Shown here: one piece after another, positions 1,359-32,770 of the stretch
Position numbering within the stretch: the stretch's first letter is position 1
Layout of the letters: every line of letters begins with the position of its first letter
UHGV virus genome: UHGV-1356687
Reading direction: 5' to 3' (one strand)
Length of the DNA stretch: 41,977 bases
Source of the DNA: a virus
Translations under genes and position numbers: made by a program
Notes under the pieces: model-generated
What the model was told of the DNA's origin: nothing
Databases searched by the model: none
What the model saw: only the letters and a program-made list of their open reading frames with translations

Positions 1359-3086
1359 ATGACTAATATAGATTATGTTCAAGAATATATTGACTATATA
1401 CGAATTAACAATATACCAATAGGTAATAAAATCAAGCAAGCAATTAGACGACATGAAAAGGACTTAGAAAAATCAAAAGACCCAGAGTATCCATATTATT
1501 ACGACCCAAGCGAAACATATGAACCAGTCGCATTTATTGAAATGTTACCAGACCCAAAAAGTAAAAAGACAAATAAACTAGCTAAGTTCCAGAAGTTTAT
1601 TGTAGCATTAATCTATGGTTGGCGCAAAAAGAGTAATAAAATGCGCAGATTCAGAAAAGTATATATCAGTTTAGCACGTAAAAACGGTAAATCAATTCTG
1701 GTTGCTGGTATCTCATTGTATGAGTTCATCTTAGGACAATATCCAAAAGCTTCAAGACAGATTGTAGCTGGGGCAAATACTAAAGAACAAGCTGGTATTG
1801 TATTCCGTATGTTAAAATCACAGCTGAAAGCATTGAGAAATTCAAGTGATAGTGTGCGTAAAATTACTAAGGTAAATAAATATGACATTGAACATTTAGA
1901 AGATGAATCAACTGTTAAACCTTTAGCAAGTGACGCAGATAGTTTAGACGGACTAGACGTACTTTGCGGTGTATTAGATGAATACGGAGAAGCAAAAAGC
2001 ACAGCATTAATTGAGGTATTAGAAAGTTCACAGTCACAACAACCACAAGGTTTAATTTTGATTATCAGCACAACAACTAAAAATCTTAATGGACCAATGC
2101 ACAGCATAGAATATCCATTTATAACTAAGCTATTAAACGAAGAAGTTGAAGCAGACGCATACCTTGCTTTATGTTGGGAAATGGATAGTATCAGCGAAGT
2201 TGACGACCAAGCCAATTGGATAAAATCAAACCCACTGTTTGAGAATACTCAATTGTATGAAACCATGTATGAACATAAGGTTAATTCATTGGCAGAGTAT
2301 AAAGCAAAAGGTGACATGAGTGGTTGGCTAACTAAAGAAATGAACTTCTGGGTACAAGCTTCACAAGATAGTTTCATGGATAAAGAAAGCTGGGACGCAA
2401 TCAAAGCAACAAAAGAATATGATATTAGAAAACGTCCTGTATTTATTGGAATGGACTTATCACGAACAAAAGATATAACGGCGGTTAGCTGGATTATACC
2501 AATTGCAGAAGAAGAGAAGTTACTCGTAAATACACATGGGTTCATTTCATCAATTGGAGGTATTGAAAAGAAAATTCAAGAGGACAAAATACCATATCGC
2601 CAATATGAAAATGAAGGTATCGTTTCAATTAGTAAGTTAGAATCAGGATTGATTGACCATGCGGACATGTGCGACTGGATAGTTGATTTTGTTGAAACAT
2701 ATGATTTGGACCTACAAGGCATTTTCTATGATGGTCACCAAGCGTCACAATCAGTCTTGAGATTAGCGGAAGTTTTCGGCGAACGGTATCTAATTGAAGT
2801 ACCGCAACGTATACAGTATTTAAACGCTCCTACTAAGTATCTAAGGGACGCAATATACAAAGGTGATATAATACATCAAAACAACCCACTACTCAATACA
2901 GCGATATATAATGCGTATATGAAAGAGTTTGCTGACAACATAGCAATTGAAAAGAAAATGAATCGTAACAAGATTGATTCATTGGATGCTTTAATAAATG
3001 CAATGAGTGAAGCAATGTATTATGACTTTGGATATTCAAGTTTTGAAAACATGTTAGAACAAGGTACATTTGGCTTTGGTGTTTAA
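1359..3086 (+). CDS. terL: terminase large subunit
   Basis: 575 aa with RBS aaggagg. Walker A-like LARKNGKS and Walker B-like VLDEYGE lie in the N-terminal ATPase half. The C-terminal half is acidic-rich and nuclease-like (IGMDLS...D). The gene follows terS. Confidence 0.85.
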   Translation: MTNIDYVQEYIDYIRINNIPIGNKIKQAIRRHEKDLEKSKDPEYPYYYDPSETYEPVAFIEMLPDPKSKKTNKLAKFQKFIVALIYGWRKKSNKMRRFRKVYISLARKNGKSILVAGISLYEFILGQYPKASRQIVAGANTKEQAGIVFRMLKSQLKALRNSSDSVRKITKVNKYDIEHLEDESTVKPLASDADSLDGLDVLCGVLDEYGEAKSTALIEVLESSQSQQPQGLILIISTTTKNLNGPMHSIEYPFITKLLNEEVEADAYLALCWEMDSISEVDDQANWIKSNPLFENTQLYETMYEHKVNSLAEYKAKGDMSGWLTKEMNFWVQASQDSFMDKESWDAIKATKEYDIRKRPVFIGMDLSRTKDITAVSWIIPIAEEEKLLVNTHGFISSIGGIEKKIQEDKIPYRQYENEGIVSISKLESGLIDHADMCDWIVDFVETYDLDLQGIFYDGHQASQSVLRLAEVFGERYLIEVPQRIQYLNAPTKYLRDAIYKGDIIHQNNPLLNTAIYNAYMKEFADNIAIEKKMNRNKIDSLDALINAMSEAMYYDFGYSSFENMLEQGTFGFGV

Positions 3087-3111
3087 GTAACACCCACAAG
3101 GTAAGGGATAT

Positions 3112-3441
3112 ATGATATATTATAGAAGTAGTAGAGATAGTAACAAAAACAGACAGATAGAAAGGAAGATTCAAATGTTATTACAAATTAACAAGGTAGT
3201 AAAGGAATTACCAGAAGGAGAACCGTGTCCCGCGTTGGTAGATTATGTAGATGGGATTACACATAGTCAACAATTTACAGACGGTATCAAATGTTTCAAG
3301 AAAGATGGTACTCAAATTTTAGTGGTACGAAAAAATCCGTTTGAAATTGAGATTGAAAACCTTGATAATTATGAAGGTTTTAAAGTTTATGCTGTATATC
3401 TATTAAATGATGAAGGTAAAACATTACGTAAATTAGCATAA
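3112..3441 (+). CDS. hypothetical protein (alternative start 3176 has the better RBS)
   Basis: 109-aa ORF between terL and portal. ATG 3176 is preceded by aaaggaag. A terminator follows. Confidence 0.45.
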   Translation: MIYYRSSRDSNKNRQIERKIQMLLQINKVVKELPEGEPCPALVDYVDGITHSQQFTDGIKCFKKDGTQILVVRKNPFEIEIENLDNYEGFKVYAVYLLNDEGKTLRKLA

Positions 3442-4874: not shown

Positions 4875-5391
4875 GTTCGTAAATGACAATAATATTGTTG
4901 AAGGTTACGCATTGAAATTCAACAAACCATCAAAAGACCTAGGTGGTTTTGTTGAAACTATTGACGCGCGAGCATTAGACGGTGTTAATATGGAAGATGT
5001 AAAATTATTTTTAAACCATGATTCAGGCAACTTACTTGGAAGAACAAAGAGCGGTACACTTCAATTATCAGTTGATGAAGTGGGTTTGAAATTCCGTTGT
5101 GAGTTACCAAATACAACACTTGGAAATGATGTTATGGAACTTGTAAAACGTGGTGACCTTAGTCAGTGTTCATTTGGCTTTACGGTTGCGGAAGATGAAT
5201 GGGAACGGAGAGACGGAAAACCTGTTAGAACTATCAAAAAAATCAATACACTGGCTGAAATCTCACTGGTTTCAATTCCAGCATACGACGACACAGATGT
5301 TGCAGTGGCTAAACGCTCACTTGAAAACATGGAAGTAAACGAAATGGAAAAACGCAAACTAGAATTACAGTTACGACTAGCAACCTTGTAA
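4837..5391 (+). CDS. prohead maturation protease (HK97 S78/U35 family)
   Basis: RBS gaggaag before ATG 4837 (MKQTQLEIRQL...). Motifs VEGYALKFNKPS, LFLNHDS and LGRT are typical of HK97 prohead protease. The track start at 4786 lies inside the portal gene. Confidence 0.75.
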   Translation: MKQTQLEIRQLHEFVNDNNIVEGYALKFNKPSKDLGGFVETIDARALDGVNMEDVKLFLNHDSGNLLGRTKSGTLQLSVDEVGLKFRCELPNTTLGNDVMELVKRGDLSQCSFGFTVAEDEWERRDGKPVRTIKKINTLAEISLVSIPAYDDTDVAVAKRSLENMEVNEMEKRKLELQLRLATL

Positions 5392-5467
5392 GAGTGACGC
5401 CCACAACTCACCTTGTTCATGATATACTATCTTTAGTAAGAAAATAATATGTAAAGGAGTTTACAGC

Positions 5468-6685
5468 ATGAACAAGGCAGAGTTAGAAGCGCAAGCAAAA
5501 TCTTTGTTAGCAGAAGGTAAACTTGACGAAGCTAAAAAAGTTATCGAACAGTTAGAAGCTTTGAAAGATGAAACACCAGCTGAAAACGAAGAACGTGCAG
5601 AAGATAAAGCAGAAGCACCTAAAGACGAAGTCAAAAAGGAAGAGCCTAAAGAAGAACCAAAGGATGAACCTAAAGACGAAGTCAAAGACGAACCAAAGGA
5701 AGAACCAAAAAAAGAAGAACGTTCAATTGAGAACGCAAAAGGAGAAGATATTGACATGGAGAAAGTAAAAATCAATGGTAAAGACTTAGCACAGCCAGTA
5801 ACAGAACAACGTGCCTTTTTAGACTACGTAACTTCAAAATCAACTAGCGTAAAATCATTTAACGAAACACGTGCAGTTGATGATGGACAAGTTAAATCAA
5901 CAGACGCAGAAGCAATTATCCCAGAAGATATTATCACAAAAGCACGTAAATTACCAGACACAGTTGTTGACTTACGTAATAAAGTGAATAGTATCAAAGT
6001 TAAAACATCTGGTGGTAAATACCCAATCTTGAAATCAACTAGTGCAAAAATGGTGACAGTTGAAGAGTTGGCAAAAAACCCAGCATTGGCAAAACCTGAA
6101 TTTGAAGAAGTCCCTTACAACGTATCAACATACCGTGGTCAAATTGTTGTATCACAAGAATCATTAGACGATTCAGCGGACGACTTAGCTGGAATTATCG
6201 CTGATTCAGTACAACGCCAAGGTTTAAATACAACTAATGATGTATTAGCTGGATTATTAAAAACAGCTACAGCAGTACCAGCAACTTCATTAGATGACAT
6301 CAAGACACAGATTAACACTGGTTTCGACCCAGCTTATGGATTGGAATTAATTGTTACTCAATCATTCTACAACGCAGTTGACATCATGAAAGACGGTGAC
6401 GGACGTTACTTATTACAAACAGATATTACAGCACAGTCTGGTAAATCATTGTTTGGTGTTCCAGTAACAGTGTTGAAAGATGAAATGTTAGGTAACAAAG
6501 GTGATAAAGTAGCATTCTTAGGCGACCCAGTAGCCTTTGCAACTTTCTTCAATCGTGCTGAAACAACAGCTCGTTGGATTGACCATGAAATTTACGGTCA
6601 ATACTTAGCAATCTTCATGCGTTTTGACGCTAAAGTAGTAGACCCAGCGGCTGGAAAATTCATTACACTAACACCAGCACCCTAG
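5468..6685 (+). CDS. major capsid protein (HK97 fold) with N-terminal scaffold-like delta region
   Basis: 405 aa, directly after the protease. The N-terminal ~100 aa are coiled-coil and acidic with an EPK/DEPK repeat (5590-5720). It ends ...TPAP* with CCC-TAG. Confidence 0.8.
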   Translation: MNKAELEAQAKSLLAEGKLDEAKKVIEQLEALKDETPAENEERAEDKAEAPKDEVKKEEPKEEPKDEPKDEVKDEPKEEPKKEERSIENAKGEDIDMEKVKINGKDLAQPVTEQRAFLDYVTSKSTSVKSFNETRAVDDGQVKSTDAEAIIPEDIITKARKLPDTVVDLRNKVNSIKVKTSGGKYPILKSTSAKMVTVEELAKNPALAKPEFEEVPYNVSTYRGQIVVSQESLDDSADDLAGIIADSVQRQGLNTTNDVLAGLLKTATAVPATSLDDIKTQINTGFDPAYGLELIVTQSFYNAVDIMKDGDGRYLLQTDITAQSGKSLFGVPVTVLKDEMLGNKGDKVAFLGDPVAFATFFNRAETTARWIDHEIYGQYLAIFMRFDAKVVDPAAGKFITLTPAP

Positions 6686-6749
6686 TACGCCACCTGTGGT
6701 AGGACAGGTGACACCAGCTGATACAAGTGTAACAATTGAATTATCGTAA
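6680..6749 (+). other. putative programmed +1 frameshift cassette at the major capsid gene 3' end
   Basis: CCC-TAG at 6680-6685, then a 5-nt spacer and the hairpin CACCTGT(ggtagg)ACAGGTG at 6691-6710. The +1 frame is open for 21 codons (STPPVVGQVTPADTSVTIELS) to TAA 6747-6749. The same 70-nt cassette is at 9061-9130. Confidence 0.5.
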
Positions 6750-6810
6750 ACACTAAGAGGTGGGGCATTCGCCTTACCTCTTTTTAAAATATAAAAGGAG
6801 AGTGTAAATA

Positions 6811-7011
6811 ATGGCTAAAGTATTTAATGTATACAAGAAAACAGGTGAAAAGGTTGTGAGTGAAAAACCGTCACCAGTAACAATCACTGGTTTAACAGCA
6901 GAAACACCATATAGTAAAGGTGATTTTCAAGTAACAGCTATTGAAGATGGTAAGCCAGAATCTAGCAAAGTAGATGTACCAGCATTCACTACAACCGCAA
7001 CAGCTGGATAA
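6811..7011 (+). CDS. small Ig-like (BIG2-like) domain protein, possible head decoration/accessory protein
   Basis: 66 aa with RBS aaaaggagag. The beta-rich sequence VTITGLTAETPY...FQVTAIEDGKPESSKVDV resembles bacterial Ig-like domains. Confidence 0.45.
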   Translation: MAKVFNVYKKTGEKVVSEKPSPVTITGLTAETPYSKGDFQVTAIEDGKPESSKVDVPAFTTTATAG

Positions 7012-7021
7012 TAAAAGAGGG

Positions 7022-7046
7022 CTTAGCCCTCTTTTTAAATAAGGAG
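7022..7046 (+). terminator. intrinsic terminator
   Basis: aaAGAGGGCttaGCCCTCTtttt. Confidence 0.6.
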
Positions 7047-7048
7047 GT

Positions 7049-7348
7049 ATGATAATGTTAACATTAGAAGAGGTAAAAAACAATCTACGTTTAGACTATG
7101 ATTCAGACGACGTTTATATTCAGACGTTAATTGACACAAGTTCAATGTTTATCTTAGGAGCTATTGAGGTTAAAACAGTTCCAGAAGATGTGCGCTTTAA
7201 AACTTGCCAGTTCATGCTGGTTTCTCTTTGGTATGAAAATCGTGTTCCAGCAACAAGCGCACTACAACAAGATGTACCGTTCACTATTCAGGCATTTATT
7301 TGGCAACTAAGGGGGTTATCTGATGGCGATACCAACACAACATCTTAA
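7049..7348 (+). CDS. head-tail connector protein (gp6-like DNA-packaging/adaptor)
   Basis: 99 aa. The N-terminus MLTLEEVKNNLRLDYDSDD... is typical of the phage gp6-like family. It is the first neck gene after the capsid gene. Confidence 0.65.
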   Translation: MIMLTLEEVKNNLRLDYDSDDVYIQTLIDTSSMFILGAIEVKTVPEDVRFKTCQFMLVSLWYENRVPATSALQQDVPFTIQAFIWQLRGLSDGDTNTTS

Positions 7349-7655
7349 TCAAAAAATCACTATTCAAGAGAAAACCACAGCTAAAAACGATAAATTTGAA
7401 TGGGTAACAACGTGGGTTGACAAGGCAACTATATGGTGCAGTGTAAAACAACAGTATTTCAGAGATTTTAAAGAAACATATGGTACTGCATTAGAGGATA
7501 CAACTAACTTTGTTGTGCGTTATGAACAGCGTTTCCAATTACAAAATGATATGCGTGTTGTATATAAAGGTATTAACTATGAAATAGTATCCATTTTAGA
7601 AGGTAGCTACGACCGTGACTTTACAACATTAGTATGTAAGAGGGTTAAGAAATGA
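7323..7655 (+). CDS. head closure / head-tail joining protein
   Basis: 110 aa, by position and size. It overlaps the neighbouring genes. Confidence 0.55.
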   Translation: MAIPTQHLNQKITIQEKTTAKNDKFEWVTTWVDKATIWCSVKQQYFRDFKETYGTALEDTTNFVVRYEQRFQLQNDMRVVYKGINYEIVSILEGSYDRDFTTLVCKRVKK

Positions 7656-8059
7656 GTAAGCAGAATTATGCTGACTTTTCAGACGCATACAACGCACTTA
7701 TAAAGATTGGTAAAAATGCAGATAGTATCACAGCAAAAGCACTGAACAAAGCTGGTGAAATAGGAGAGCAAGAGCTTGCTAAACGCACACCATATTGGAA
7801 CGGTAAAAAGTATAGTAGAAAAGACCAGATGTACAAGCGTGAACATATGCAGAAAAATACAGCAATGACAAAAGCAAGTAAAGGTAAACATGAAGTGTTG
7901 ATTGGGTATAATGACCAAGTTTCGTGGCGTGTTCACTTCACAGAATTAGGAACAATGACACAAAGACCACAACATTTCATTGAAAAGACCATTAAAGAGG
8001 TTCAAGACGAAATAGAAAAGATAATTATTAAAGCAATGGAGGAGGCGTTTCTAAAATGA
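7652..8059 (+). CDS. tail completion protein, HK97 gp10-like
   Basis: 135 aa. The N-terminal ...ALNKAGEIGEQELAKRTPY... pattern resembles the HK97-gp10 family. Confidence 0.5.
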   Translation: MSKQNYADFSDAYNALIKIGKNADSITAKALNKAGEIGEQELAKRTPYWNGKKYSRKDQMYKREHMQKNTAMTKASKGKHEVLIGYNDQVSWRVHFTELGTMTQRPQHFIEKTIKEVQDEIEKIIIKAMEEAFLK

Positions 8060-8421
8060 CATTACCTATTTTACAAGTGGCACAGATACTTAATGAAGCA
8101 CACCCAGAAGTCAACTGGTTTACTAACGAAGTACCAAATGAATTTGTATCACTTCCTAAGTTGCCAGTAGGTAGAATCACAGAGCTAGACATGGACTATC
8201 ACGCATACGCAAGTGCAGACCCAAATTATTACACAACCTATATCCAAGTTGATTTGTGGGTTGAAGATTTGACAATGCTAGATAAATACTATCTAGCAAT
8301 TGATAAGACAATGCGTGCTGATAACGTACAATGTTCATTTAGTACACAGACATATGAACCTGACCTAGAGGGAGCAAGTCGCATTGTGAAGCGTTACGTA
8401 ATCACACAAAGAGTTGTCTAA
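8056..8421 (+). CDS. tail terminator-like protein
   Basis: 121 aa, immediately before the major tail protein. Assigned by synteny. Confidence 0.45.
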   Translation: MTLPILQVAQILNEAHPEVNWFTNEVPNEFVSLPKLPVGRITELDMDYHAYASADPNYYTTYIQVDLWVEDLTMLDKYYLAIDKTMRADNVQCSFSTQTYEPDLEGASRIVKRYVITQRVV

Positions 8422-8499
8422 GTGACACCCTAAAACCAGTTGATTAATGATATAATTATTCTAGTAAGAAAATATAAACACTAAAGGAGAGAAACAATT

Positions 8500-9066
8500 A
8501 TGGCAGTAGTAGGTTTTAAGAAAGCTATTATCAGCGTACCTAAAGCAGAAGGTTCTGGGGTTGATAAATACACAATTGATAAAAGCGGTGGCGGTACTAT
8601 TGAAGCATCAATTCAAGGAATTTCAGCAGAACAAACAACCGTTTATGCGTCAAACGTTCCAATTTGGGTATCAGCTAAAGGAGTTGGAGAGTTAACAGCT
8701 TCATTAAACGTATTTGACTTGTATAAAGACAACGTTTATGAGAAAATTTTAGGTATTGAACGTGGTGAAGATGGTATTGCAATCGTTGGTGAAGATACAG
8801 AAGCGCCTTATGTTTCAGCAGTATTTGTCGCAGACGGTGCAGACGGTAAAGAAATGTACTTTGGTTTAGTTAAAGGACGTTTCAGCCACCCAGAAATCGC
8901 ATTGAATACAACAGAATCTGGTGGTACAGAACCAAACACAGAAACAATTGAAGGTTCATTTGTAACAGATTCACGTGGCTTTGCATACATGAGTGCTGTT
9001 TCAAGCGAAACATTAACACTTGATAAGTTTGTTGACAAAGTAAACAACATTAATCCATTGCCCTAG
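8500..9066 (+). CDS. major tail protein
   Basis: 188 aa with strong RBS aaaggagag. It lies between the neck genes and the chaperone/TMP. It ends ...NPLP* with CCC-TAG. Confidence 0.75.
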   Translation: MAVVGFKKAIISVPKAEGSGVDKYTIDKSGGGTIEASIQGISAEQTTVYASNVPIWVSAKGVGELTASLNVFDLYKDNVYEKILGIERGEDGIAIVGEDTEAPYVSAVFVADGADGKEMYFGLVKGRFSHPEIALNTTESGGTEPNTETIEGSFVTDSRGFAYMSAVSSETLTLDKFVDKVNNINPLP

Positions 9067-9130
9067 TACACCACCTGTGGTAGGACAGGTGACACCAGCA
9101 GACACAAGTGTATCAATTGAATTGACTTAG
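9061..9130 (+). other. putative programmed +1 frameshift cassette at the major tail gene 3' end
   Basis: CCC-TAG 9061-9066, hairpin CACCTGT(ggtagg)ACAGGTG at 9072-9091, and a 21-codon +1 ORF (STPPVVGQVTPADTSVSIELT) to TAG 9128-9130. It is near-identical to 6680-6749. Confidence 0.5.
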
Positions 9131-9157
9131 AAGAGCTTAACGGCTCTTCTTTTTTAT
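9130..9157 (+). terminator. intrinsic terminator
   Basis: AAGAGCttaacgGCTCTTcttttttatt. Confidence 0.55.
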
Positions 9158-9196
9158 TACACTGGTTTCACCAACACCCACAACCATTACTTTTAA

Positions 9197-9205
9197 TGCT
9201 ATAAT
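9197..9205 (+). promoter_or_regulatory. extended -10 promoter (TGcTATAAT)
   Basis: tgctataat 9197-9205. Confidence 0.4.
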
Positions 9206-9240
9206 AACTATAGTAAATAAAATTATTTGGAGGAATAAAC

Positions 9241-9573
9241 ATGGCAAAACAAACAAAATCATTCAGTATTAACTTAATTATTGACGGAAAAAACCGCAAA
9301 ATTACAAAAAAAGGTGTCAAAGTTAAGACAATGCGTAGTATTATGAAGTATTACCGTGATATGGAAAACGTACAAAAAGACATGGCTAATGGTGTAGAAG
9401 TTGACCAATTAGAATTGTTAGATTCAATGATTGTATTATTAGTTGAAATCTTTGAACACCCAGAAGTTACATTTGAAGCAATTGAAAACTCAATTGAATC
9501 TGATGACTTAGTAGACGTTTTAGAAAACATCTTAGGAACTATCATGGGGGTTGATGATTCAAAGGAAGCCTAG
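9241..9573 (+). CDS. tail assembly chaperone (G-like)
   Basis: 110-aa acidic protein between the major tail protein and tape measure. Confidence 0.55.
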   Translation: MAKQTKSFSINLIIDGKNRKITKKGVKVKTMRSIMKYYRDMENVQKDMANGVEVDQLELLDSMIVLLVEIFEHPEVTFEAIENSIESDDLVDVLENILGTIMGVDDSKEA

Positions 9574-18291: not shown

Positions 18292-18321
18292 AAAAACACC
18301 TCTAAAAAGAGGTGTTTTTAT
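18292..18321 (+). terminator. intrinsic terminator (symmetrical A-run/T-run)
   Basis: AAAAACACCTCtaaaaaGAGGTGTTTTT. Confidence 0.65.
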
Positions 18322-18375
18322 TTGCGTTTTAATGCATAATCACCTTACTTTTAATCTGAAAAACGCTTAGAATCG
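18302..18375 (+). repeat. ~70-bp direct repeat copy A (before lysis cassette)
   Basis: tttatttgcgttttaatgcataatcaccttacttttaatctgaaaaacgcttagaatcgtcctgtgaa is repeated at 19976-20045 with about 8 mismatches. It contains the inverted repeat GCGTTTT...AAAACGC. Confidence 0.6.
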
Positions 18376-18407
18376 TCCTGTGAAGCACACTATTTCCCTT
18401 ATTTAAA

Positions 18408-18962: not shown

Positions 18963-19946
18963 ATGAAGGTAAAAGGTATTTTATTTGGTGCATTAGCAAC
19001 CATTGGTTTATTTGCTGGAATGCAAACAGCTAACGCATATGAAGTTAATAACGAGTTCAATTTAAGTCCTTGGGAAGGTTCAGGACAGGTTGCAGTACCT
19101 AATAAGATTATCTTACATGAAACTGCTAATGAACGTGCCACAGGAAGAAATGAAGCAACGTACATGAAAAATAACTGGTTTAACGCACATACAACAGCTA
19201 TCGTTGGTGATGGTGGTATTGTTTATAAGATTGCACCAGAAGGTAACATCTCATGGGGGGCTGGTAACGCAAACCCCTACGCACCTATTCAAATTGAGTT
19301 GCAACATACACATGATAAGGAATTGTTCAAAAAGAACTATAAAGCATACATTGATTATACAAGGGACATGGGTAAAAAGTTTAGTATTCCTATGACACTT
19401 GACCAAGGTTCTTCTGTTTGGGAAAAAGGTGTTATCTCTCATAAATGGGTATCAGATTATGTATGGGGTGACCACACAGACCCATATGGTTACTTAGCAG
19501 AAATGGGAATCAGTAAAGCACAACTTGCTAAAGACTTAGCAAATGGCGTTCAGGGTTATTCTAAGCCGTCAAACCAAGCAACACCTAACAAACCATCTAA
19601 ACCAAGTGTAACACCTCAAAAACAACGTTTTAACTATAGAGTTGATGGGTTGGAATATGTAAACGGAATGTGGCAAATCTATAACGAACATTTAGGTAAA
19701 ATTGACTTTAATTGGACTGATAACGGTATTCCAGTTAGTGTTGTTGATAAAGTAAACCCAGCTACTGGGCAACCAACCAAAGACCAAGTTCTTTCTGTAG
19801 GCGATTACTTCAATTTCCAAGTTAATTCTGTAGGTGTAGTGCAAGAGCAAACACCTTACGGTGGTTATACATTATCTCATGTACAGTTACCAGAAGAGTT
19901 CATTTGGTTATTCACTGAAAACAAAAACACTTTATTATATCAATAA
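18963..19946 (+). CDS. endolysin: N-acetylmuramoyl-L-alanine amidase (Amidase_2/PGRP) with N-terminal Sec signal peptide and C-terminal cell-wall-binding region
   Basis: Signal peptide MKVKGILFGALATIGLFAGMQTANA|YE. Amidase_2-like block ILHETANE...GNANPYAPIQIELQHT. The C-terminal ~130 aa are non-catalytic. Confidence 0.8.
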   Translation: MKVKGILFGALATIGLFAGMQTANAYEVNNEFNLSPWEGSGQVAVPNKIILHETANERATGRNEATYMKNNWFNAHTTAIVGDGGIVYKIAPEGNISWGAGNANPYAPIQIELQHTHDKELFKKNYKAYIDYTRDMGKKFSIPMTLDQGSSVWEKGVISHKWVSDYVWGDHTDPYGYLAEMGISKAQLAKDLANGVQGYSKPSNQATPNKPSKPSVTPQKQRFNYRVDGLEYVNGMWQIYNEHLGKIDFNWTDNGIPVSVVDKVNPATGQPTKDQVLSVGDYFNFQVNSVGVVQEQTPYGGYTLSHVQLPEEFIWLFTENKNTLLYQ

Positions 19947-19949
19947 AAC

Positions 19950-19983
19950 AAAAAGACACCCTATGTTGGGTGTCTTTATTTGC
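19950..19983. terminator. bidirectional intrinsic terminator between convergent late (+) and early (-) transcription
   Basis: aAAAGACACCCtatgttGGGTGTCTTTattt, with A/T runs on both sides. Confidence 0.6.
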
Positions 19984-20045
19984 GTTTTAATGGATAATCA
20001 CCTTACTTTGAATCTGAAACGTGCTTAGAATGCTCCTATGAAACA
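19976..20045 (+). repeat. ~70-bp direct repeat copy B (after lysis cassette)
   Basis: ctttatttgcgttttaatggataatcaccttactttgaatctgaaacgtgcttagaatgctcctatgaa. Like copy A, it directly follows a terminator. Confidence 0.6.
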
Positions 20046-28995: not shown

Positions 28996-29184
28996 CTATG
29001 AACATGCTACAATCTTAGCTGTTTCTAAATTATAACTATTTACTTCAATAATAAGCACATCAAGTCCATGTATATTCTCCATCACTTCCTCCATATAATT
29101 TTCTGCTAACTCTTTGGTAGTGAAAACCTCTGATTGGTAAGCTAGTGTTCTAGCTTCAAAATCAATAATATTTACAATATACAT
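28996..29184 (-). CDS. hypothetical protein (62 aa)
   Basis: RBS agaggagg. It is the first gene after promoter P(29210-29245). Confidence 0.4.
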   Translation of the reverse strand: MYIVNIIDFEARTLAYQSEVFTTKELAENYMEEVMENIHGLDVLIIEVNSYNLETAKIVACS

Positions 29185-29209
29185 TTTAATTCCTCCTCTT
29201 ATCTTATGT

Positions 29210-29245
29210 ACCTACTATATCATAGGATATAGTAGTTGTCAACTA
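29210..29245 (-). promoter_or_regulatory. consensus sigma-A promoter with embedded 24-bp palindrome (palindrome-promoter copy 1)
   Basis: On the - strand: TTGACA, 17 bp, TATAGT. The palindrome CTACTATATCATAGGATATAGTAG (29212-29235) spans the spacer and -10. Confidence 0.6.
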
Positions 29246-29419
29246 TTTAATTGAATAAAATACTAAATTTTCTAATTTTAAGGTGAATGTTTCTGAACTA
29301 CCAAAACTAAGTTCTAAAAAACGTTGTGTGATATTTACACGTTTAACATTGGTAAATAAGATAGTTCTATTATCTTTACCAGCCATAAAGTTTACTGTTA
29401 CGTCTTTTAATTCTTTCAT
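29243..29419 (-). CDS. hypothetical small protein (59 aa), not in track
   Basis: RBS ggagga before ATG (MKELKDVTVNFMAGKD...). Confidence 0.3.
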   Translation of the reverse strand: MKELKDVTVNFMAGKDNRTILFTNVKRVNITQRFLELSFGSSETFTLKLENLVFYSIK

Positions 29420-29483
29420 TTTAATATATCCTCCATCATTTTATTAGTAAAATCTTTTCCATTTTTCTTTAGTCTTAAAAATT

Positions 29484-30224
29484 TCATGTTGTTTCCTCCT
29501 TTTGTTCTCCCATTATTCTGTATTTCGCTATGTTGAAATATTTTTCATCTAATTCAATACCAATAAATCTCCTATTAGTGTTCTTACACGCTACACCTGT
29601 TGAACCACTACCCATTGTAAAATCTAGCACAATATCGTTTTCATTTGTATAAGACTTAATTAACCACTCCAATAAATCAACAGGTTTCTGCGTTGGATGG
29701 AATCTATTTTTACGGATAGGTGTTGAGTATTTTCTAACAGTCTTTGGATATCTACCATCATAGTTAGTATTATTGCGTTCTAACTTTCCTGTGTTTGTAC
29801 TTACATCCCTCCCACCATATCTATTATATGATGAACCTTGGTCTTTCTGAACGTTGTATGTTGGTTGTTTTTCATAAAATACACTTACAATTTCATGTGA
29901 TGACAATGGTTTCTTGTTTGCCTGTGTAAAGTCTGTCCCTTGTTGCTTTTCCCAAATAATATCGTATCTAAAATTGTCAATATTACTCATGTTTAAATAT
30001 GTTGTAAAAGGTTGTTTCCCAAATAACAGTACTGGTGTATCTTTATTTGTTAACTTATTAATCTTTTCCCACATTTCTTTAAAAGGTATAGTGTTATCCC
30101 AAGAATATCTTTTTTTAGTTAGTATTCCATATGGTGGGTCAGTCAATACCATATCAACCTTTATGTTTCTATCAATTAACTCATCCATAGCAACTAATGC
30201 ATCTTTATTATATAATTCAAACAT
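29484..30224 (-). CDS. DNA methyltransferase, beta-class N6-adenine/N4-cytosine (orphan)
   Basis: 246 aa. Motif IV (LTDPPYG) is N-terminal and motif I (FTMGSGSTGVA) C-terminal. No adjacent restriction endonuclease is recognisable. Confidence 0.8.
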   Translation of the reverse strand: MFELYNKDALVAMDELIDRNIKVDMVLTDPPYGILTKKRYSWDNTIPFKEMWEKINKLTNKDTPVLLFGKQPFTTYLNMSNIDNFRYDIIWEKQQGTDFTQANKKPLSSHEIVSVFYEKQPTYNVQKDQGSSYNRYGGRDVSTNTGKLERNNTNYDGRYPKTVRKYSTPIRKNRFHPTQKPVDLLEWLIKSYTNENDIVLDFTMGSGSTGVACKNTNRRFIGIELDEKYFNIAKYRIMGEQKEETT

Positions 30225-30252
30225 ATTTAACTTCCTCCCTTTATCTTATGTA

Positions 30253-30288
30253 TCTACTATATCATGTGATATAGTAGTTGTCAATACT
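30253..30288 (-). promoter_or_regulatory. consensus promoter with embedded palindrome (copy 2)
   Basis: TTGACA, 17 bp, TATAGT. Palindrome CTACTATATCATGTGATATAGTAG 30255-30278. Confidence 0.6.
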
Positions 30289-31583
30289 TATTTTAAAATA
30301 TTTTCAATATCTTCATTAGTAAAGTCTTTACCATTTGTTACTGTTTCAAAAATCTTTTTCTCCGTTGGTGTTTCAGGTACAATGTGATAATAAAGTGGTT
30401 TCTTTGTTTGACCATAACGGTCTGTGCGTGCCTTGGATTGTTCATAGTTGATTGATTCTAAAGGCATTGAATTGTAAATTGTCACATTTGCAATAACAAA
30501 ATCATTAATGCCTGTAGAAGCGGATTTGTAGTGTGCTAACACAACACCGTTGTCTTTACCTTTAAATACTTTTAAGTCTTTGCTAGCGCCATTATATTGA
30601 CTATATGGACGTTTTAACTTGTCTAATACTTGTTTCAACATTTCAAGTTCCACATTGTAATTATAAAATATAACTATCCGTTCGTTGTTATGTGTTTCTA
30701 AAATAGCCTGTAAACGCTCAAACGGTTCTTTACTTACTTGTTTATTGATTCCTAATAAGAAACCATGGCTCACACAACGCATTGCATTAAATAGCTTACT
30801 ACTATTGTCTAATTCAATTACTTCGCCGTTATCCGCTTTGTACATGCGGTGTTTTTTCAACTTAGCATACATAGCTGGTTTTTTAGTCTTATATACATAA
30901 TCTTCTGGAAAGTAGTCTTTATCACGTGTGAAACGCACTGCGCATTGGTCAATCATTTGTTTTAATAAATGCTCGTTCTGATAACCTACAATGTCCATAA
31001 ATCGCATAGAACCCATTTGTCGCATTTGCTTAATAACAAATAGTTGCTCAAACTCTTTTTTAGGCTTGCGGAATACATTTAGCATATATAACTGTGGGTA
31101 GTAGTTCTCTAGCTTCCCATTACTAACTGGTGTTGCGGTTAACAGTCTTACATAAGGTGTTTTCTTACATAATTTCATAGCAAACTTAGTTACTTTAGAA
31201 GAGCTAACACCTACTTTGTGGGCTTCGTCAATGATAATGAACGTATCTTTATCAACCCATTTCAATAATTCAGTCACACGCCAGCTACTTTCAAATGAGA
31301 TTGCAACTCGTTTTGCATCTGCTAATAACTCTTTATTTTTCTTTGTACCCTTGTTAAGTGTTGTAATTTCAATATTCATCTTAGCTCCATCTTCTGCAAA
31401 GTCTGCAACTTTAGGTGCTAAACAGATAACTAATAACTTACTGCACCCAGATTGCAAGTAGGCTCCTAATGCAGTGAATGTCTTACCTGTTCCAGCGTCA
31501 GATAAATCGTAAGGGTGTGTATTCCATTTTTCAATACCTTCAATTTGCGTTGGTAATAGTTCAATTTTTCCAATCTTAGTCAT
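30288..31583 (-). CDS. SNF2-family (DEAH-box) helicase
   Basis: RBS ggtggaag before ATG 31583 (MTKIGKIELLPTQ...). Walker A is DAGTGKT and motif II is IIDEAHKV. LLTATP and a C-terminal helicase domain are also present. The track start at 31673 lacks an RBS. Confidence 0.75.
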   Translation of the reverse strand: MTKIGKIELLPTQIEGIEKWNTHPYDLSDAGTGKTFTALGAYLQSGCSKLLVICLAPKVADFAEDGAKMNIEITTLNKGTKKNKELLADAKRVAISFESSWRVTELLKWVDKDTFIIIDEAHKVGVSSSKVTKFAMKLCKKTPYVRLLTATPVSNGKLENYYPQLYMLNVFRKPKKEFEQLFVIKQMRQMGSMRFMDIVGYQNEHLLKQMIDQCAVRFTRDKDYFPEDYVYKTKKPAMYAKLKKHRMYKADNGEVIELDNSSKLFNAMRCVSHGFLLGINKQVSKEPFERLQAILETHNNERIVIFYNYNVELEMLKQVLDKLKRPYSQYNGASKDLKVFKGKDNGVVLAHYKSASTGINDFVIANVTIYNSMPLESINYEQSKARTDRYGQTKKPLYYHIVPETPTEKKIFETVTNGKDFTNEDIENILK

Positions 31584-31977
31584 ATAGTACTTCCACCTTA
31601 TCATCTTTAATATCTGGTAAATATGGTTGTTCATAATTGAAATAAATATCATCTGCACCATAGTACACTGCACTTTCCATGTTATCCAAATAAAGTAATA
31701 GGTCCTCTAAATCATCAAGCGTATCTCTTAATAGTAAACCATATCCACCAGCACATCTAACTTCTTGTAAGTATCTAATTTGTAATGGGTCTGGCTGGTA
31801 GTTCCCTGTTTTAAGCTCTAATGCAATGAAGTAACCACTATAACACGCTTCAATATCTGCACGTCCCACACGGTCATATATGGTTGCTGTGTTAACATTT
31901 ACAACCGCTCCTTTTGATTTCAAGTAATCTACTACTTCTTTACTAAATTTAGCTTCTTTTTTCACGTGCTGAACCAC
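31576..31977 (-). CDS. VRR-NUC domain nuclease
   Basis: 133 aa. The PD-(D/E)xK-like core ...GRADIEACYSGYFIALELKTG... is typical of VRR-NUC. Confidence 0.6.
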   Translation of the reverse strand: MVQHVKKEAKFSKEVVDYLKSKGAVVNVNTATIYDRVGRADIEACYSGYFIALELKTGNYQPDPLQIRYLQEVRCAGGYGLLLRDTLDDLEDLLLYLDNMESAVYYGADDIYFNYEQPYLPDIKDDKVEVLYD

Positions 31978-32182
31978 CTTTTTTATTACCTTGTAACATA
32001 TTTGTCAATAGTTCAATGGCTTTTTCTACATCAATATTATTTTGAGAAAATACACCTAACATTGCTAATACTGTGTATGCTGCATATTTTTCTATGTCAT
32101 CTTGTGAAATCCCTTTACTTCTGAAATCATTTTCCATTTCACTTAAAATATTATCAATTGCAATAATGCGTTCTGTTTTCAT
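31949..32182 (-). CDS. hypothetical protein (77 aa)
   Basis: ORF with RBS ggagaggaag. Confidence 0.4.
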   Translation of the reverse strand: MKTERIIAIDNILSEMENDFRSKGISQDDIEKYAAYTVLAMLGVFSQNNIDVEKAIELLTNMLQGNKKGGSAREKRS

Positions 32183-32184
32183 TT

Positions 32185-32394: not shown

Positions 32395-32396
32395 TT

Positions 32397-32606: not shown

Positions 32607-32607
32607 T

Positions 32608-32770
32608 TTAGTTATCCTCCTTGAATGTTTGAGTTGCTAAGAACGTTAATACGAATGATATAGACCATGCTATCATTACAGCATCCCTTGAACCTGTGAA
32701 TACGATTGTAAAGATACCTACTAAAAATGCCACCAATACAGCTGTTAAAACTTCTAAATTTTCATTCATC
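32608..32770 (-). CDS. small membrane protein (53 aa, 2 TM), not in track
   Basis: RBS ggaggacaaataag before ATG 32770 (MNENLEVLTAVLVAFLVGIFTIVF...). Confidence 0.35.

What the first reader, a model, noticed from the sequence alone, without database searches (positions are those of the whole stretch)
6680..6749. Identical CCC-UAG + hairpin + 21-codon +1-frame cassette at the 3' ends of both the major capsid and major tail genes
Both genes end ...P* with CCC-TAG (MCP 6680-6685, MTP 9061-9066). Each is followed by a near-identical 70-nt sequence containing a perfect 7-bp hairpin CACCTGT(ggtagg)ACAGGTG that starts 5 nt after the stop codon. That is the canonical spacing for a frameshift stimulator. 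Only the +1 frame is open across the cassette, and it ends with a stop exactly where the two copies stop resembling each other. It encodes STPPVVGQVTPADTSV(T/S)IEL(S/T). Of the 8 nucleotide differences between the copies, 5 are third-position and synonymous in the +1 frame, including TAA/TAG. The other 3 give conservative Thr/Ser swaps. That pattern implies selection on the +1 reading frame. A tRNA-Pro slip from CCC to CCU at a 'hungry' UAG is a classical +1 mechanism. To my recollection Listeria phage PSA makes long and short forms of both its capsid and tail proteins by 3'-terminal +1 frameshifts. Here the added module is only 21 aa and is shared by head and tail proteins. That suggests a common docking or crosslinking tag, possibly for the Ig-like 66-aa protein encoded at 6811-7011.
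Basis: partly seen in the sequence, partly recalled or inferred. Interest (0 to 1): 0.85.

Follow-up and report, generated by a model that had tools for sequence, protein, structure and literature searches.

The report
Frameshift tags recruiting a split FN3 domain
In this Enterococcus phage, a rare ribosomal +1 slip at the ends of the head and tail genes probably adds the first two strands of a small adhesion-type (FN3) domain, and a separate 66-residue protein encodes the other five strands, so head and tail probably capture one shared surface protein by completing its fold.

Summary
The window is an Enterococcus siphovirus (Efquatrovirus, 97.9% identical to MSF2 over the 3.9-kb capsid-to-tail query). 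Its major capsid gene (5468-6685) and major tail gene (8500-9066) both end in CCC-TAG. Each is followed by a near-identical 70-nt cassette with a 7-bp hairpin and a 21-codon +1 ORF.

CCC is 2.7% of Pro codons, and CCCTAG occurs only at these two sites. Across 31 unique cassette variants only the +1 frame is open (31/31 vs 0/31), and it is under purifying selection (pN/pS 0.37 vs 2.2-2.9).

The recoding is the known Listeria phage PSA type (+1 at CCC_stop). The payload appears undescribed. The 21-aa extension matches strands A-B of an FN3 domain. The 66-aa ORF at 6811-7011 is an FN3 domain lacking exactly those strands.

The same tag-plus-N-truncated-partner design recurs in Staphylococcus Triavirus (+1), phiEf11 (-1 and in frame), Lactobacillus PLE3 (-1) and phage K-like myoviruses (in frame), and in 80 of 80 surveyed viral loci. 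Published MALDI spectra of Triavirus virions contain an unassigned 25,208 Da peak that matches the predicted +1 tail product (25,204.7).

Docking by fold complementation is inferred, not shown.

The parts
5468..6685 (+). Major capsid protein gene (405 aa, zero frame); the last sense codon is CCC
   Evidence: Pfam Phage_capsid 1.3e-25 and PHROG 10 at 1.2e-52. ORF listed.
6680..6685 (+). Proposed +1 slip site CCC_UAG at the capsid gene end (rare Pro codon in the P site, stop in the A site)
   Evidence: CCC is 2.7% of Pro codons; CCCTAG occurs only twice in the window. CCC is conserved in relatives although the upstream codons vary. PSA precedent.
6691..6710 (+). 7-bp stem-loop CACCTGT-GGTAGG-ACAGGTG, 8 nt after CCC; candidate frameshift stimulator
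   Evidence: All 7 pairs are intact in 31/31 unique variants, and the only variable pair is U-A/U.G. Pair-disrupting synonymous variation is 0/5 in the stem against 11/16 outside it (Fisher p = 0.012). The folding energy is not exceptional (z about 0).
6684..6749 (+). +1-frame extension of the capsid protein: 21 codons (STPPVVGQVTPADTSVTIELS) plus TAA; matches FN3 strands A-B
   Evidence: Top-scoring of 1651 stop-terminated peptides in the window with an A-B-only FN3 profile (12.6 bits).
6755..6785 (+). Intrinsic terminator-like hairpin plus T-run directly after the capsid tag
   Evidence: A terminator is annotated at the equivalent place in phages Sigurd, LM99 and Max.
6794..6802 (+). Shine-Dalgarno AAAGGAGAG, 8 nt upstream of the 66-aa ORF start
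   Evidence: Read directly from the sequence.
6811..7011 (+). 66-aa protein: an FN3 domain lacking strands A-B (strands C-G only); proposed acceptor for the tags
   Evidence: Pfam fn3 matches only model positions 36-81 of 84. An intact-FN3 profile gives E = 9e-15 over positions 29-87 only, and this is the only such ORF in the window. PHROG 341 at 5.6e-19. The orthologue was detected by MS in vB_EfaS-271 with 94% coverage and 131 PSMs.
8500..9066 (+). Major tail (tube) protein gene (188 aa, zero frame); the last sense codon is CCC
   Evidence: Pfam Phage_TTP_1 3.2e-08 and PHROG 88 at 2.7e-42.
9061..9066 (+). Proposed +1 slip site CCC_UAG at the tail gene end
9072..9091 (+). Second copy of the 7-bp stem-loop
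9065..9130 (+). +1-frame extension of the tail protein: 21 codons (STPPVVGQVTPADTSVSIELT) plus TAG; matches FN3 strands A-B
   Evidence: Second-ranked of 1651 stop-terminated peptides in the window (11.1 bits).
9129..9160 (+). Intrinsic terminator-like hairpin plus T-run; it overlaps the tail tag's stop codon and is unrelated in sequence to the capsid terminator

Best explanation
Proposed mechanism, step by step.

Step 1 (recoding). Ribosomes finishing the capsid and tail genes reach the rare proline codon CCC with UAG in the A site. A fraction of them slip +1, re-pairing the Pro tRNA from CCC to CCU. The downstream 7-bp hairpin, 8 nt after CCC, probably helps.

Step 2 (product). Those ribosomes add 21 residues, S-T-P-P-V-V-G-Q-V-T-P-A-D-T-S-V-(T/S)-I-E-L-(S/T). 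This is not a free-standing module. It corresponds to the first two beta-strands (A and B) of a fibronectin type III domain.

Step 3 (partner). The other five strands (C to G) are made separately as the 66-aa protein from ORF 6811-7011, which has its own Shine-Dalgarno sequence and ATG.

Step 4 (assembly). The 66-aa protein docks onto tagged capsid and tail subunits by fold complementation. The tag supplies the missing A-B hairpin and rebuilds a complete FN3 sandwich. One small gene therefore decorates both head and tail, at a density set by the frameshift frequency.

Step 5 (function). The displayed FN3 domain probably mediates weak binding to the cell surface or to carbohydrate, as proposed for other phage Ig-like and FN3 domains.

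What is shown and what is inferred:
- Shown here: the sequence anatomy, selection on the +1 frame, the match of tag and ORF to the two parts of one FN3 domain, and recurrence of the design in other phage lineages.
- Inferred: the frameshift itself in this phage, the role of the hairpin, physical docking, and function.

My confidence that the +1 product is made is about 0.85-0.9. The overall score is lower because of the docking step.
For: Recoding:
- The slip sites and +1 ORFs are in place.
- CCC is rare and CCCTAG is unique to the two gene ends.
- Among 55 tag-bearing gene ends in relatives, all but five end in CCC-TAG. Four of the exceptions keep CCC as CCC_AGC_TAA or CCC_AGT (three of them with the same spacing to the stem); one ends in GCC TAG. 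The upstream codons vary freely.
- The +1 frame is open in 31/31 variants, with pN/pS 0.37 and 12 of 2000 shuffles reaching that value.
- The stem is intact in 31/31 variants, with synonymous change suppressed in it.
- PSA, A118 and A500 have experimentally established +1 shifts at CCC_UGA and ACA_CCC_UCC.

Experimental support from homologous systems:
- Staphylococcus phage 47 has TTA CCC AGC TAA at both its capsid and tail gene ends. This motif also occurs in some Efquatrovirus tail genes.
- Its predicted +1 tail product is 25,204.7 Da. That matches an unassigned 25,208 Da peak shared by CsCl-purified Triavirus virions. No ordinary phage 47 product checked lies within about 400 Da.
- phiEf11 virions show two capsid protein bands, and its proposed 21-aa -1 extension is another A-B tag.

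Split FN3:
- Pfam and an intact-FN3 profile match the 66-aa ORF only from about position 29-36 onward.
- Tag plus ORF aligns collinearly with intact natural domains such as P0204, P0070 and P0109.
- Prepending the real tag adds about 5 bits for the window's two tags (5-16 bits across the six phage tags that reach significance) and extends the profile match to positions 2-87. For the window tags, 0 of 300 shuffled tags do as well.
- An A-B-only profile, built without any tag sequences, ranks the tags first among 10,549 stop-terminated peptides.
- AF2 on the tag+ORF fusion gives pLDDT 95.3, with the tag forming two strands. All top PDB matches are FN3 domains.

Generality:
- 41 of 48 near-full-length relatives start at Met1 with strand C.
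- In 80 of 80 viral loci, an A-B-like peptide ends 19-90 nt upstream of the truncated ORF.
- The same design appears with +1 tags (Triavirus), -1 tags (phiEf11 capsid gene, PLE3, Aramis) and in-frame tags (phiEf11 tail protein; phage K-group gp150, TmpH and TmpI).

Partner is a separate virion protein:
- The Triavirus partner is observed at 15,871 Da, which equals the ORF product minus Met. TmpH and TmpI are seen at 17,718 and 7,818 Da.
- The 7-kDa orthologue is abundant in a vB_EfaS-271 lysate.
Against: - There are no protein data for this phage or for any Efquatrovirus frameshift product. The vB_EfaS-271 MS search used annotated ORFs only.
- The window's hairpin is not more stable than shuffled sequence (z about 0 to +0.4).
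- The EFAP-1 tail junction lacks a good stem.
- One in-frame tag, on the phiEf11 tail protein, also has a strong stem. The stems are therefore not exclusive to slip sites.
- AF2 was run on a covalent fusion with intact FN3 homologues in the alignment, which biases it towards FN3.
- The ORF alone still models reasonably (pLDDT 89.7, with the five models ranging 73-90).
- The Aramis tag and the 12-aa phiEf11 tail tag were not significant in the shuffle test.
- The 80 surveyed loci represent only about four lineages.
- The 25,208 Da match is a single mass coincidence within about 3 Da.
- Docking in trans has not been demonstrated for any member.
Confidence: 0.62

Rival explanations
1. The +1 frameshift is real, but the 21-aa tail works on its own. 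It might act as a flexible C-terminal tail like PSA Tsh-L, as an inter-subunit strand that stabilises the lattice, or as a tolerated relic of an ancestral capsid-FN3 fusion. On this reading the 66-aa protein associates with virions in some other way or not at all.
For: - Short frameshift tails without a partner exist. PSA Tsh-L carries a 24-aa acidic tail.
- The 66-aa ORF alone is modelled fairly confidently (pLDDT 89.7).
- No direct binding data exist.
Against: - The tag scores as FN3 strands A-B with profiles built without any tags.
- The partner lacks exactly those strands.
- An A-B tag precedes the truncated ORF in 80 of 80 loci and in five or more lineages, whatever route is used to reach it: +1, -1 or in frame.
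- The tail tag has no downstream remainder, yet it is kept under purifying selection. A relic would be expected to decay.
Confidence: 0.22
2. No frameshift occurs. The duplicated 70-nt cassette is instead a non-coding RNA or DNA element placed after two highly expressed genes, for example part of a terminator or attenuator, an RNase site or a regulatory hairpin.
For: - Both copies lie immediately upstream of intrinsic terminators.
- The stem is strongly conserved.
Against: - The codon-position pattern, pN/pS of 0.37 and triple-nucleotide Ser-to-Ser changes (AGT/TCA) indicate protein coding.
- The frame is open in 31/31 variants.
- The peptide is conserved where the DNA, stem and slip context have diverged, as in Sigurd, EFAP-1 and Triavirus.
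- The true terminators lie downstream and are unrelated to each other.
- Rfam finds nothing.
- In-frame versions of the same peptide exist.
- A Triavirus virion mass matches the +1 product.
Confidence: 0.04
3. A second recoding event, such as ribosome hopping over the terminator or reinitiation without release, joins the tag to the 66-aa ORF. This would give a covalent capsid-FN3 fusion, as in SPP1 gp17.1*.
For: - Tag and ORF together make one contiguous FN3 domain.
- The gap between them is only 61 nt.
Against: - The ORF has a strong SD and ATG, and it lies in a third frame relative to both the capsid gene and the tag.
- I found no matching take-off and landing codons when reading the sequence.
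- The tail tag has no ORF downstream to hop to.
- In Triavirus the partner is observed as a separate polypeptide at exactly ORF-minus-Met mass, and the +1 product ends at the tag stop.
- In phi2 three in-frame stops separate the tag from the partner.
Confidence: 0.03

Closest known systems
Listeria phage PSA (also A118 and A500): programmed +1 frameshifts at the 3' ends of cps and tsh (Zimmer 2003; reviewed in Atkins 2016, PMC5009743)
   Same: - Both the capsid and tail genes of one siphovirus are recoded near their 3' ends.
- The slip is on a rare CCC Pro codon next to a stop (tsh: ACA CCC UGA) or before a structure (cps: ACA_CCC_UCC plus pseudoknot).
- The host has low GC content.
- The extension is short; Tsh-L gains 24 aa.
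   Different: - The PSA payloads are unrelated to each other and to FN3. Tsh gains an acidic tail and Cps gains a SAP/HeH-like segment of about 50 aa.
- In the window, both genes carry the same cassette encoding FN3 strands A-B, and a separate gene encodes the rest of the domain.
Bacillus phage SPP1 gp17.1*: the tail tube protein extended by a frameshift with an FN3 domain (PMC8718954). This belongs to the wider class of Ig-like domains added to phage structural proteins by frameshifting (Fraser 2006; cited from memory and from the wording of PMC5009743)
   Same: - An FN3 domain is displayed on a subset of tail tube subunits.
- The proportion is set by a 3'-terminal frameshift (3:1 in SPP1).
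- The proposed role is weak cell-wall carbohydrate binding.
   Different: - In SPP1 the whole FN3 domain is encoded contiguously in the shifted frame and is covalently attached.
- Here the shifted frame stops after strand B, and strands C-G are a separate polypeptide.
- The same tag is also present on the capsid protein.
Enterococcus phage phiEf11 ORF10: a proposed -1 frameshift adding 21 aa to the major head protein (Stevens 2016, PMC5221750)
   Same: - A 21-aa extension with a downstream stem-loop.
- Two capsid protein bands are seen in virions.
- I find the extension (IEAPKVESVIPTTDGASIVLS) is the same kind of A-B tag.
- A truncated-FN3 partner, ORF16, is present.
   Different: - The slip is -1 on A AAA AAA rather than +1 on CCC.
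- The phiEf11 tail protein carries its tag in frame.
- The authors did not link the extension to FN3 or to ORF16, and they did not detect its peptides.
Donor-strand complementation in chaperone-usher pili, and engineered split beta-sandwich pairs such as FN3 fragment complementation and SpyTag/SpyCatcher (from my own knowledge)
   Same: - An Ig-like fold missing strands is completed by a short peptide from another chain.
- A roughly 20-aa genetically encoded tag captures a small beta-sandwich partner.
   Different: - Two N-terminal strands (A-B) are donated here, rather than one C-terminal strand.
- No chaperone and no isopeptide bond are evident.
- The system is natural and viral, and the tag dosage is set by recoding.
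- Complex formation has not yet been demonstrated.

Membership tests
PSA-type programmed +1 ribosomal frameshift at a 3'-terminal CCC codon | A rare CCC Pro codon in the P site, directly followed by a stop or slow codon | tested here: met
   CCC TAG is at 6680-6685 and 9061-9066. CCC accounts for 9 of 329 Pro codons, and CCCTAG is unique to these two sites. CCC is conserved in relatives although the upstream codons vary.
PSA-type programmed +1 ribosomal frameshift at a 3'-terminal CCC codon | A +1 ORF that is open from the slip site, closed shortly upstream, and conserved as protein | tested here: met
   The +1 frame has a stop 4-7 codons upstream of CCC and runs 21 codons downstream. It is open in 31/31 variants with pN/pS 0.37.
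PSA-type programmed +1 ribosomal frameshift at a 3'-terminal CCC codon | A stimulatory element (downstream RNA structure or adjacent stop codon) | tested here: inconclusive
   The adjacent UAG is present. The 7-bp stem, 8 nt after CCC, is intact in 31/31 variants, with synonymous change suppressed in it (Fisher p = 0.012). However, its energy is unexceptional (z about 0). One related junction lacks a stem, and one in-frame tag has one.
PSA-type programmed +1 ribosomal frameshift at a 3'-terminal CCC codon | Both short and long protein forms are detected in virions | not testable with these tools
   No data exist for this phage. Indirect support comes from two systems. An unassigned 25,208 Da Triavirus peak compares with a predicted 25,204.7 Da +1 tail product. 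phiEf11 virions show two capsid protein bands.
Fibronectin type III domain (Pfam PF00041) | A sequence match across the whole seven-strand domain (A to G) | tested here: not met
   This row concerns the 66-aa ORF alone. Pfam fn3 matches only positions 36-81 of 84 (E = 0.052, below the curated cut-off). The family-specific intact-FN3 profile gives E = 9e-15 but covers only positions 29-87. The ORF is therefore a partial FN3 domain.
Fibronectin type III domain (Pfam PF00041) | Tag plus 66-aa ORF together cover the full domain and fold as FN3 | tested here: met
   The profile match extends to positions 2-87 and gains about 5 bits, and 0 of 300 shuffled tags do as well. AF2 gives pLDDT 95.3 and pTM 0.83. 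All top Foldseek PDB matches are FN3 domains. The A4 profile hits fibronectin and titin FN3 domains down to 1e-32.
Frameshift-appended complete Ig-like/FN3 domain (SPP1 gp17.1* class) | The whole domain is encoded contiguously in the shifted frame and is covalently attached | tested here: not met
   The +1 ORF ends after 21 codons, at strand B. A terminator, an SD and a new ATG in a different frame then follow.
Fold (donor-strand) complementation between two polypeptides | The acceptor protein lacks strands that are needed to close its beta-sandwich | tested here: met
   At the sequence level the ORF begins at strand C. 41 of 48 relatives start at Met1 with strand C. The Triavirus partner's mass equals ORF minus Met. 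Whether the ORF is unstable when alone was not testable. AF2 on the ORF alone gave pLDDT 89.7.
Fold (donor-strand) complementation between two polypeptides | The donor peptide on another chain occupies the missing strands, forming a physical complex | not testable with these tools
   Only a covalent fusion could be modelled. Genomic co-occurrence is 80 of 80 loci.

The most novel reading that the evidence does not exclude
Firmicute phages carry a natural, non-covalent tag-and-catcher system built from a split FN3 domain. A roughly 20-aa A-B hairpin is placed at the C-terminus of a structural protein, reached by a +1 slip, a -1 slip or in frame. It captures a separately encoded protein that begins at FN3 strand C.

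Where the tag depends on recoding, the frameshift frequency sets how densely head and tail are decorated by one shared gene product. In phage K-like myoviruses, the same joint chains three virion proteins in series (gp150, TmpH, TmpI).

If true, this would be a new assembly principle for virion decoration. It would also explain many small ORFs that are currently annotated as 'major tail protein'.
Probability: 0.55. Interest if true: 0.88.

Novelty: new variant of a known kind. Interest (0 to 1): 0.8.

Why it matters
1. It adds a clear case of PSA-type +1 recoding. One cassette is used on both the capsid and tail genes, and the arrangement is conserved across more than 100 Enterococcus phage genomes. 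None of the records I inspected annotates it.

2. It indicates that the recoded product is half of a domain joint, not a domain. If the 21-mer and the 66-aa protein do assemble, this is a natural split-FN3 connector. It would let one 200-nt gene decorate two different lattices at a density tuned by frameshifting.

3. It brings together several scattered observations. These are the small ORFs mis-annotated as 'major tail protein' in Enterococcus and Staphylococcus phages, the two capsid protein bands of phiEf11, the unassigned 25,208 Da MALDI peak of Triavirus virions, and the gp150/TmpH/TmpI trio of therapeutic Kayviruses.

4. It is of practical interest. Efquatroviruses, Triaviruses and Kayviruses are candidates for phage therapy or are clinically relevant. 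A short tag with a small catcher offers a ready handle for displaying cargo on virions, or for altering surface adhesion.

Tried and rejected
- **Fused relatives:** a word-indexed homologue search with the tag+ORF fusion returned only standalone proteins of about 66 aa. No fused relative appeared among the close homologues.
- **Genomic context searches:** P0083 against viral contigs found nothing. The Efquatrovirus-only alignment A2 against genome contigs also found nothing, so there are no close prophage relatives.
- **AF2 with paired fusions:** I replaced those rows with intact natural domains.
- **Rfam:** no family matched 6500-9400.
- **Solved structures:** no close relative of the capsid or tail protein has a solved structure.
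- **Peptide-level MS:** the vB_EfaS-271 supplement holds protein-level tables only, so the tag peptides and the ORF's N-terminus could not be checked.
- **Cryo-EM papers:** the papers on Brochothrix NF5 and Staphylococcus 812 do not mention such a joint.
- **Literature on prior description:** searches for split FN3, strand complementation or donor strand in phage decoration found nothing. Subscription journals are not covered, so absence is not proof.
- **In-frame control for the stems:** this gave a mixed result, with two in-frame tags lacking structure and one having it.
- **Ribosome hopping:** I considered hopping from the tag to the ORF and rejected it. I found no matching take-off and landing codons, the tail tag has no target ORF, and the Triavirus masses fit separate chains.
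- **Phage-encoded tRNA-Pro:** none; the window has no tRNA genes.
Full report
**What the window is**

The window is an Enterococcus siphovirus of the genus Efquatrovirus. Over the 3.9-kb capsid-to-tail query (window 5400-9300) it is 97.9% identical to phage MSF2, and 124 phage records match it.

ORF 5468-6685 is the major capsid protein (MCP; Pfam Phage_capsid 1e-25). ORF 8500-9066 is the major tail tube protein (MTP; Phage_TTP_1, PHROG 88).

**Observation check**

Both genes end in CCC TAG (6680-6685 and 9061-9066). A 70-nt cassette follows each, and the two copies differ at 8 positions. Each cassette contains:
- a perfect 7-bp stem CACCTGT/ACAGGTG (6691-6710 and 9072-9091), starting 5 nt after the stop;
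- a 21-codon ORF in the +1 frame (6684-6749 and 9065-9130).

These ORFs encode STPPVVGQVTPADTSVTIELS and STPPVVGQVTPADTSVSIELT. Similarity between the two copies begins at CCC and ends at the +1 stop.

This is not chance. CCC accounts for 9 of 329 Pro codons in the phage's ORFs, and two of those nine are these terminal codons. CCCTAG occurs nowhere else on either strand.

**Is the +1 frame coding?**

I collected 55 gene-end tags of this kind from about 35 related genomes, including GenBank records and IMG/VR contigs. Forty-nine of them are cassettes of the canonical 70-nt type.

Among the 31 unique 70-mers:
- the +1 frame is open in 31/31, and the other two frames in 0/31;
- pN/pS is 0.37 in the +1 frame, against 2.9 and 2.2 in the others;
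- only 12 of 2000 column shuffles reach the observed value.

Some changes are protein-preserving multi-nucleotide swaps, such as AGT/TCA (both Ser) and TTA/CTA (both Leu).

The codons just upstream of the slip site vary widely (...TPAP...PQLP...VTKP...IVTP...NPLP...VSLP), yet CCC followed by a stop is nearly invariant. The exceptions are informative:
- Several tail genes read TTA CCC AGC TAA C, with the same spacing to the stem.
- The Sigurd and EFAP-1 capsid genes read ACA CCC AGT..., with the zero-frame stop five codons later.

In all of these the +1 frame is open from CCC and ends in ...ETSATIELS*. A +1 re-pairing from CCC to CCU or CCA is therefore the common denominator.

**The hairpin**

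All seven pairs are intact in 31/31 unique variants, and the only variable pair alternates between U-A and U.G. Synonymous sites that would break a pair never vary (0/5), whereas 11/16 third positions outside the stem vary (Fisher p = 0.012).

Other lineages have unrelated stems downstream of their slip sites:
- Sigurd capsid gene, z -3.0;
- EFAP-1 capsid gene, z -1.9, with a compensatory C-G to G-C change relative to Sigurd;
- phiEf11 capsid gene, z -4.5;
- PLE3, z -3.9;
- Triavirus, z -2.4 and -1.35.

There are counterpoints. The window's own stem is not more stable than shuffled sequence (z about 0 to +0.4). The EFAP-1 tail junction has no good stem. Of three in-frame tags used as a control, two lack structure but one, on the phiEf11 tail protein, has it. 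A stimulatory role is therefore plausible but unproven. Rfam has no match.

**Comparison with known recoding**

Atkins et al. 2016 summarise established +1 shifts in Listeria phages PSA, A118 and A500. These occur at CCC_UGA in tsh and at ACA_CCC_(UCC) plus a pseudoknot in PSA cps. The authors note how rare CCC is in low-GC hosts.

I read the PSA record directly. The Tsh-L extension is only 24 aa (ETPLELPLENESGIGDDSEETTQD). The Cps-L extension is a segment of about 50 aa that resembles a SAP/HeH motif.

So the recoding mechanism here is a new member of a known kind, and a short extension is not novel in itself.

**What the 21 residues are**

The 66-aa ORF at 6811-7011 has its own SD and ATG and lies in a third frame. 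It matches Pfam fn3 only over model positions 36-81 of 84.

An exhaustive profile search found 592 relatives. Of 48 near-full-length matches among the top 150, 41 begin at the protein's own Met1 with strand C, as in "M..FNVYKK".

Intact domains of the same family (P0204; internal repeats of P0070, P0109 and P0096) read "PPxVESVxPTDTTATIxM-loop-TYxLY...". A segment matching the tag therefore directly precedes strand C in those domains.

I built a profile from 54 intact natural FN3 domains that contained no tags. With that profile:
- The real tag adds about 5 bits for the window's two tags, and 5-16 bits across the six phage tags that reach significance.
- With the window's tag, the alignment stretches to positions 2-87.
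- The number of shuffled tags doing as well is 0/300 for both window tags and for PLE3, 1/300 for EFAP-1, and 5/300 for Sigurd and phi2.
- Aramis and a 12-aa phiEf11 fragment are not significant.

An A-B-only profile ranks the tags at the very top of 10,549 stop-terminated peptides. Within the window they rank 1st and 2nd of 1,651. The 66-aa ORF is the only ORF that matches the FN3 profile (E = 9e-15, positions 29-87).

AlphaFold2 on the tag+ORF fusion gives pLDDT 95.3 and pTM 0.83. The tag forms strands at residues 5-11 and 15-21. All top PDB matches are FN3 domains, and the alignment's profile hits fibronectin and titin FN3 domains down to 1e-32. The ORF alone gives pLDDT 89.7, with the five models ranging 73-90.

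AF2 is therefore consistent with the split-domain reading but not decisive, because the alignment contained intact FN3 homologues.

**The same design elsewhere**

- *Staphylococcus Triavirus (phi2, phage 47).* Both the capsid and tail genes end TTA CCC AGC TAA. Their +1 tags are AKPQKVNVTAKAKSAVISAE* and ANPQNVEVAVNSKSATVSAE*. One partner ORF follows the tail gene and starts MTKTLKVYKG... (truncated FN3 plus a Big_2-like domain).
- *Enterococcus phiEf11.* The capsid gene ends A AAA AAA TAG, with the -1 tag IEAPKVESVIPTTDGASIVLS*. The tail protein ends in frame with ...SPSVESVTPTFDGASTELS*. The partner ORF16 starts MVDTFKIYKG....
- *Lactobacillus PLE3 and Enterococcus Aramis.* Both have -1 tags on the capsid gene plus a partner ORF.
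- *Phage K-like myoviruses.* Three adjacent virion genes form a chain. gp150 ends ...SAPKNVQVTPKEDGADVSAE*. TmpH starts LAKLNLYKGNE... and ends ...EAPADVTVEPGENSADITV*. TmpI starts MEKTLKVYSNGE....

In a survey of 80 viral loci that encode a relative of the truncated module, all 80 have an A-B-like peptide ending 19-90 nt upstream. Of these:
- 78 score at or above the 98.9th percentile of all peptides;
- 76 are in the +1 frame, behind CCC_TAG or TTA_CCC_AGC_TAA or, in two loci, behind a stop a few codons after a CCC_AGT site;
- 3 are in frame;
- 1 has no long upstream ORF in the stored DNA.

These loci represent only about four lineages. Within genomes, the two tags co-vary.

**Experimental anchors in the literature**

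- *Triavirus virions.* Stverakova et al. 2018 ran MALDI-TOF on CsCl-purified Triavirus virions. They list shared peaks at 7,936, 11,645, 12,598, 15,871, 23,295, 25,208 and 30,373, and assign only the tail protein (23,295) and the 'Ig-like domain' protein (15,871).
- *My calculations for phage 47.* The tail protein minus Met is 23,294.7 Da. The partner minus Met is 15,871.2 Da, so the partner is a separate virion polypeptide that starts at strand C. The +1 tail product minus Met is 25,204.7 Da, against the unassigned peak at 25,208. No ordinary phage 47 product checked lies within about 400 Da. The 30,373 peak fits the capsid protein cleaved after residue 113.
- *Phage K group.* The same paper reports gp150, TmpH and TmpI as separate virion proteins at 23,069, 17,718 and 7,818 Da.
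- *phiEf11.* Stevens et al. 2016 saw two capsid protein bands in virions and proposed the 21-aa -1 extension, but they did not detect its peptides.
- *vB_EfaS-271.* In this close relative of the window, the 7-kDa orthologue of the 66-aa ORF was found with 94% coverage and 131 PSMs. The tail protein had 128 PSMs. The sample was a lysate, not purified virions.

**Interpretation**

The best-supported reading has three parts.
- A PSA-type +1 slip at CCC_UAG appends FN3 strands A-B to a fraction of capsid and tail subunits.
- The separately made 66-aa protein (strands C-G) docks by fold complementation, so the joint rebuilds a full FN3 domain on both head and tail.
- The displayed domain plausibly aids weak cell-surface binding, as proposed for SPP1 gp17.1*, where the complete FN3 domain is covalently added by a frameshift at a 3:1 ratio.

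Steps shown here are the sequence anatomy, selection on the +1 frame, the match of tag and ORF to the two parts of one FN3 domain, and the recurrence across lineages. Steps inferred are the frameshift in this particular phage, the role of the stem, physical docking, and function.

I found no prior description of a split FN3 joint in phages. The searchable library omits most subscription journals, so this absence is not conclusive.

**Verdict**

The recoding is a new member of a known kind. The split-domain payload with its shared partner is a new variant that deserves experimental follow-up.

Concrete predictions for this phage are capsid and tail species 2,080.3 Da heavier than the zero-frame products, and two junction peptides.

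Noticed in passing
window 5386-5446, 8414-8474, 9163-9223: Three copies of a roughly 61-nt element (..GTGAC(G/A)CCC(A/T)(C/A)AAC..ATGATATA(C/A)T..TAGTAAGAAAATA) lie just upstream of the capsid gene, the tail gene and the tail-chaperone gene. They look like late promoter regions. Together with the terminators after each tag, the capsid and tail genes would then each form their own promoter-to-terminator unit (family D6).
   Followed up: no
window 5583-5717: A 12-nt-periodic tandem repeat lies inside the N-terminal part of the capsid gene. It encodes a Lys/Glu/Pro-rich (KEEPKDEPKDEVKDEPKEEPKKE-like) tract, presumably in the protease-removed delta/scaffold region (families D4 and D16).
   Followed up: no
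window 29182-39807 (several sites): A family of 67-84-nt repeats, 5-7 copies, each contains TTCCTCC (the reverse complement of an SD) followed by TTATCTTATG..CTACTATATCAT..GTCAAC. They probably mark promoter/leader regions of minus-strand early genes (families D1-D3 and D5).
   Followed up: no
window 18311-18387 and 19969-20045: A 77-nt direct repeat (87% identity) flanks the 327-aa ORF at 18963-19946. This could be a cassette boundary or duplicated regulatory regions.
   Followed up: no
L005 (IMGVR_UViG_3300045988_002390), tail gene end: One relative has GCC TAG instead of CCC TAG before an otherwise intact tail tag. This is either a natural loss of the slip codon or a sequencing variant. It would make a useful natural control for tail tagging.
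   Followed up: no
L043 (Staphylococcus phage A3R, Kayvirus) 1837-3246: Three consecutive virion genes (gp150, TmpH, TmpI) are each broken at an FN3 B-C loop. gp150 and TmpH end with in-frame A-B segments, and TmpH and TmpI begin at strand C. This suggests a non-covalent chain of three proteins.
   Followed up: partly
PDB 9d93 chain Sa (mycobacteriophage Bxb1 gp30, 'tail wing base'): The N-terminus of gp30 (residues 7-56) weakly matches the N-truncated module profile (E = 1.2e-3). gp30 is reported to bind the tail spike gp22. This may be a solved example of the same joint, and it is worth inspecting whether gp22 donates strands.
   Followed up: partly
phiEf11 (PMC5221750, Table 1): The phiEf11 major tail protein (predicted 21.5 kDa) carries the in-frame A-B tag and migrates at 28-30 kDa on SDS-PAGE. 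The paper does not explain this, and neither can I.
   Followed up: no
GenBank annotations of relatives (e.g. NC_023551 gp54, MK982307 msf2phage_25): Orthologues of the 66-aa ORF are annotated inconsistently as 'major tail protein', 'tail tube protein', 'terminase large subunit' or hypothetical. None of the records I inspected annotates a frameshift product for the capsid or tail gene.
   Followed up: yes
PV544182.1 Enterococcus phage TwoStep (hit H5): A homing endonuclease is annotated within the capsid-to-tail gene block of this close relative. It splits the match to the window into three pieces.
   Followed up: no
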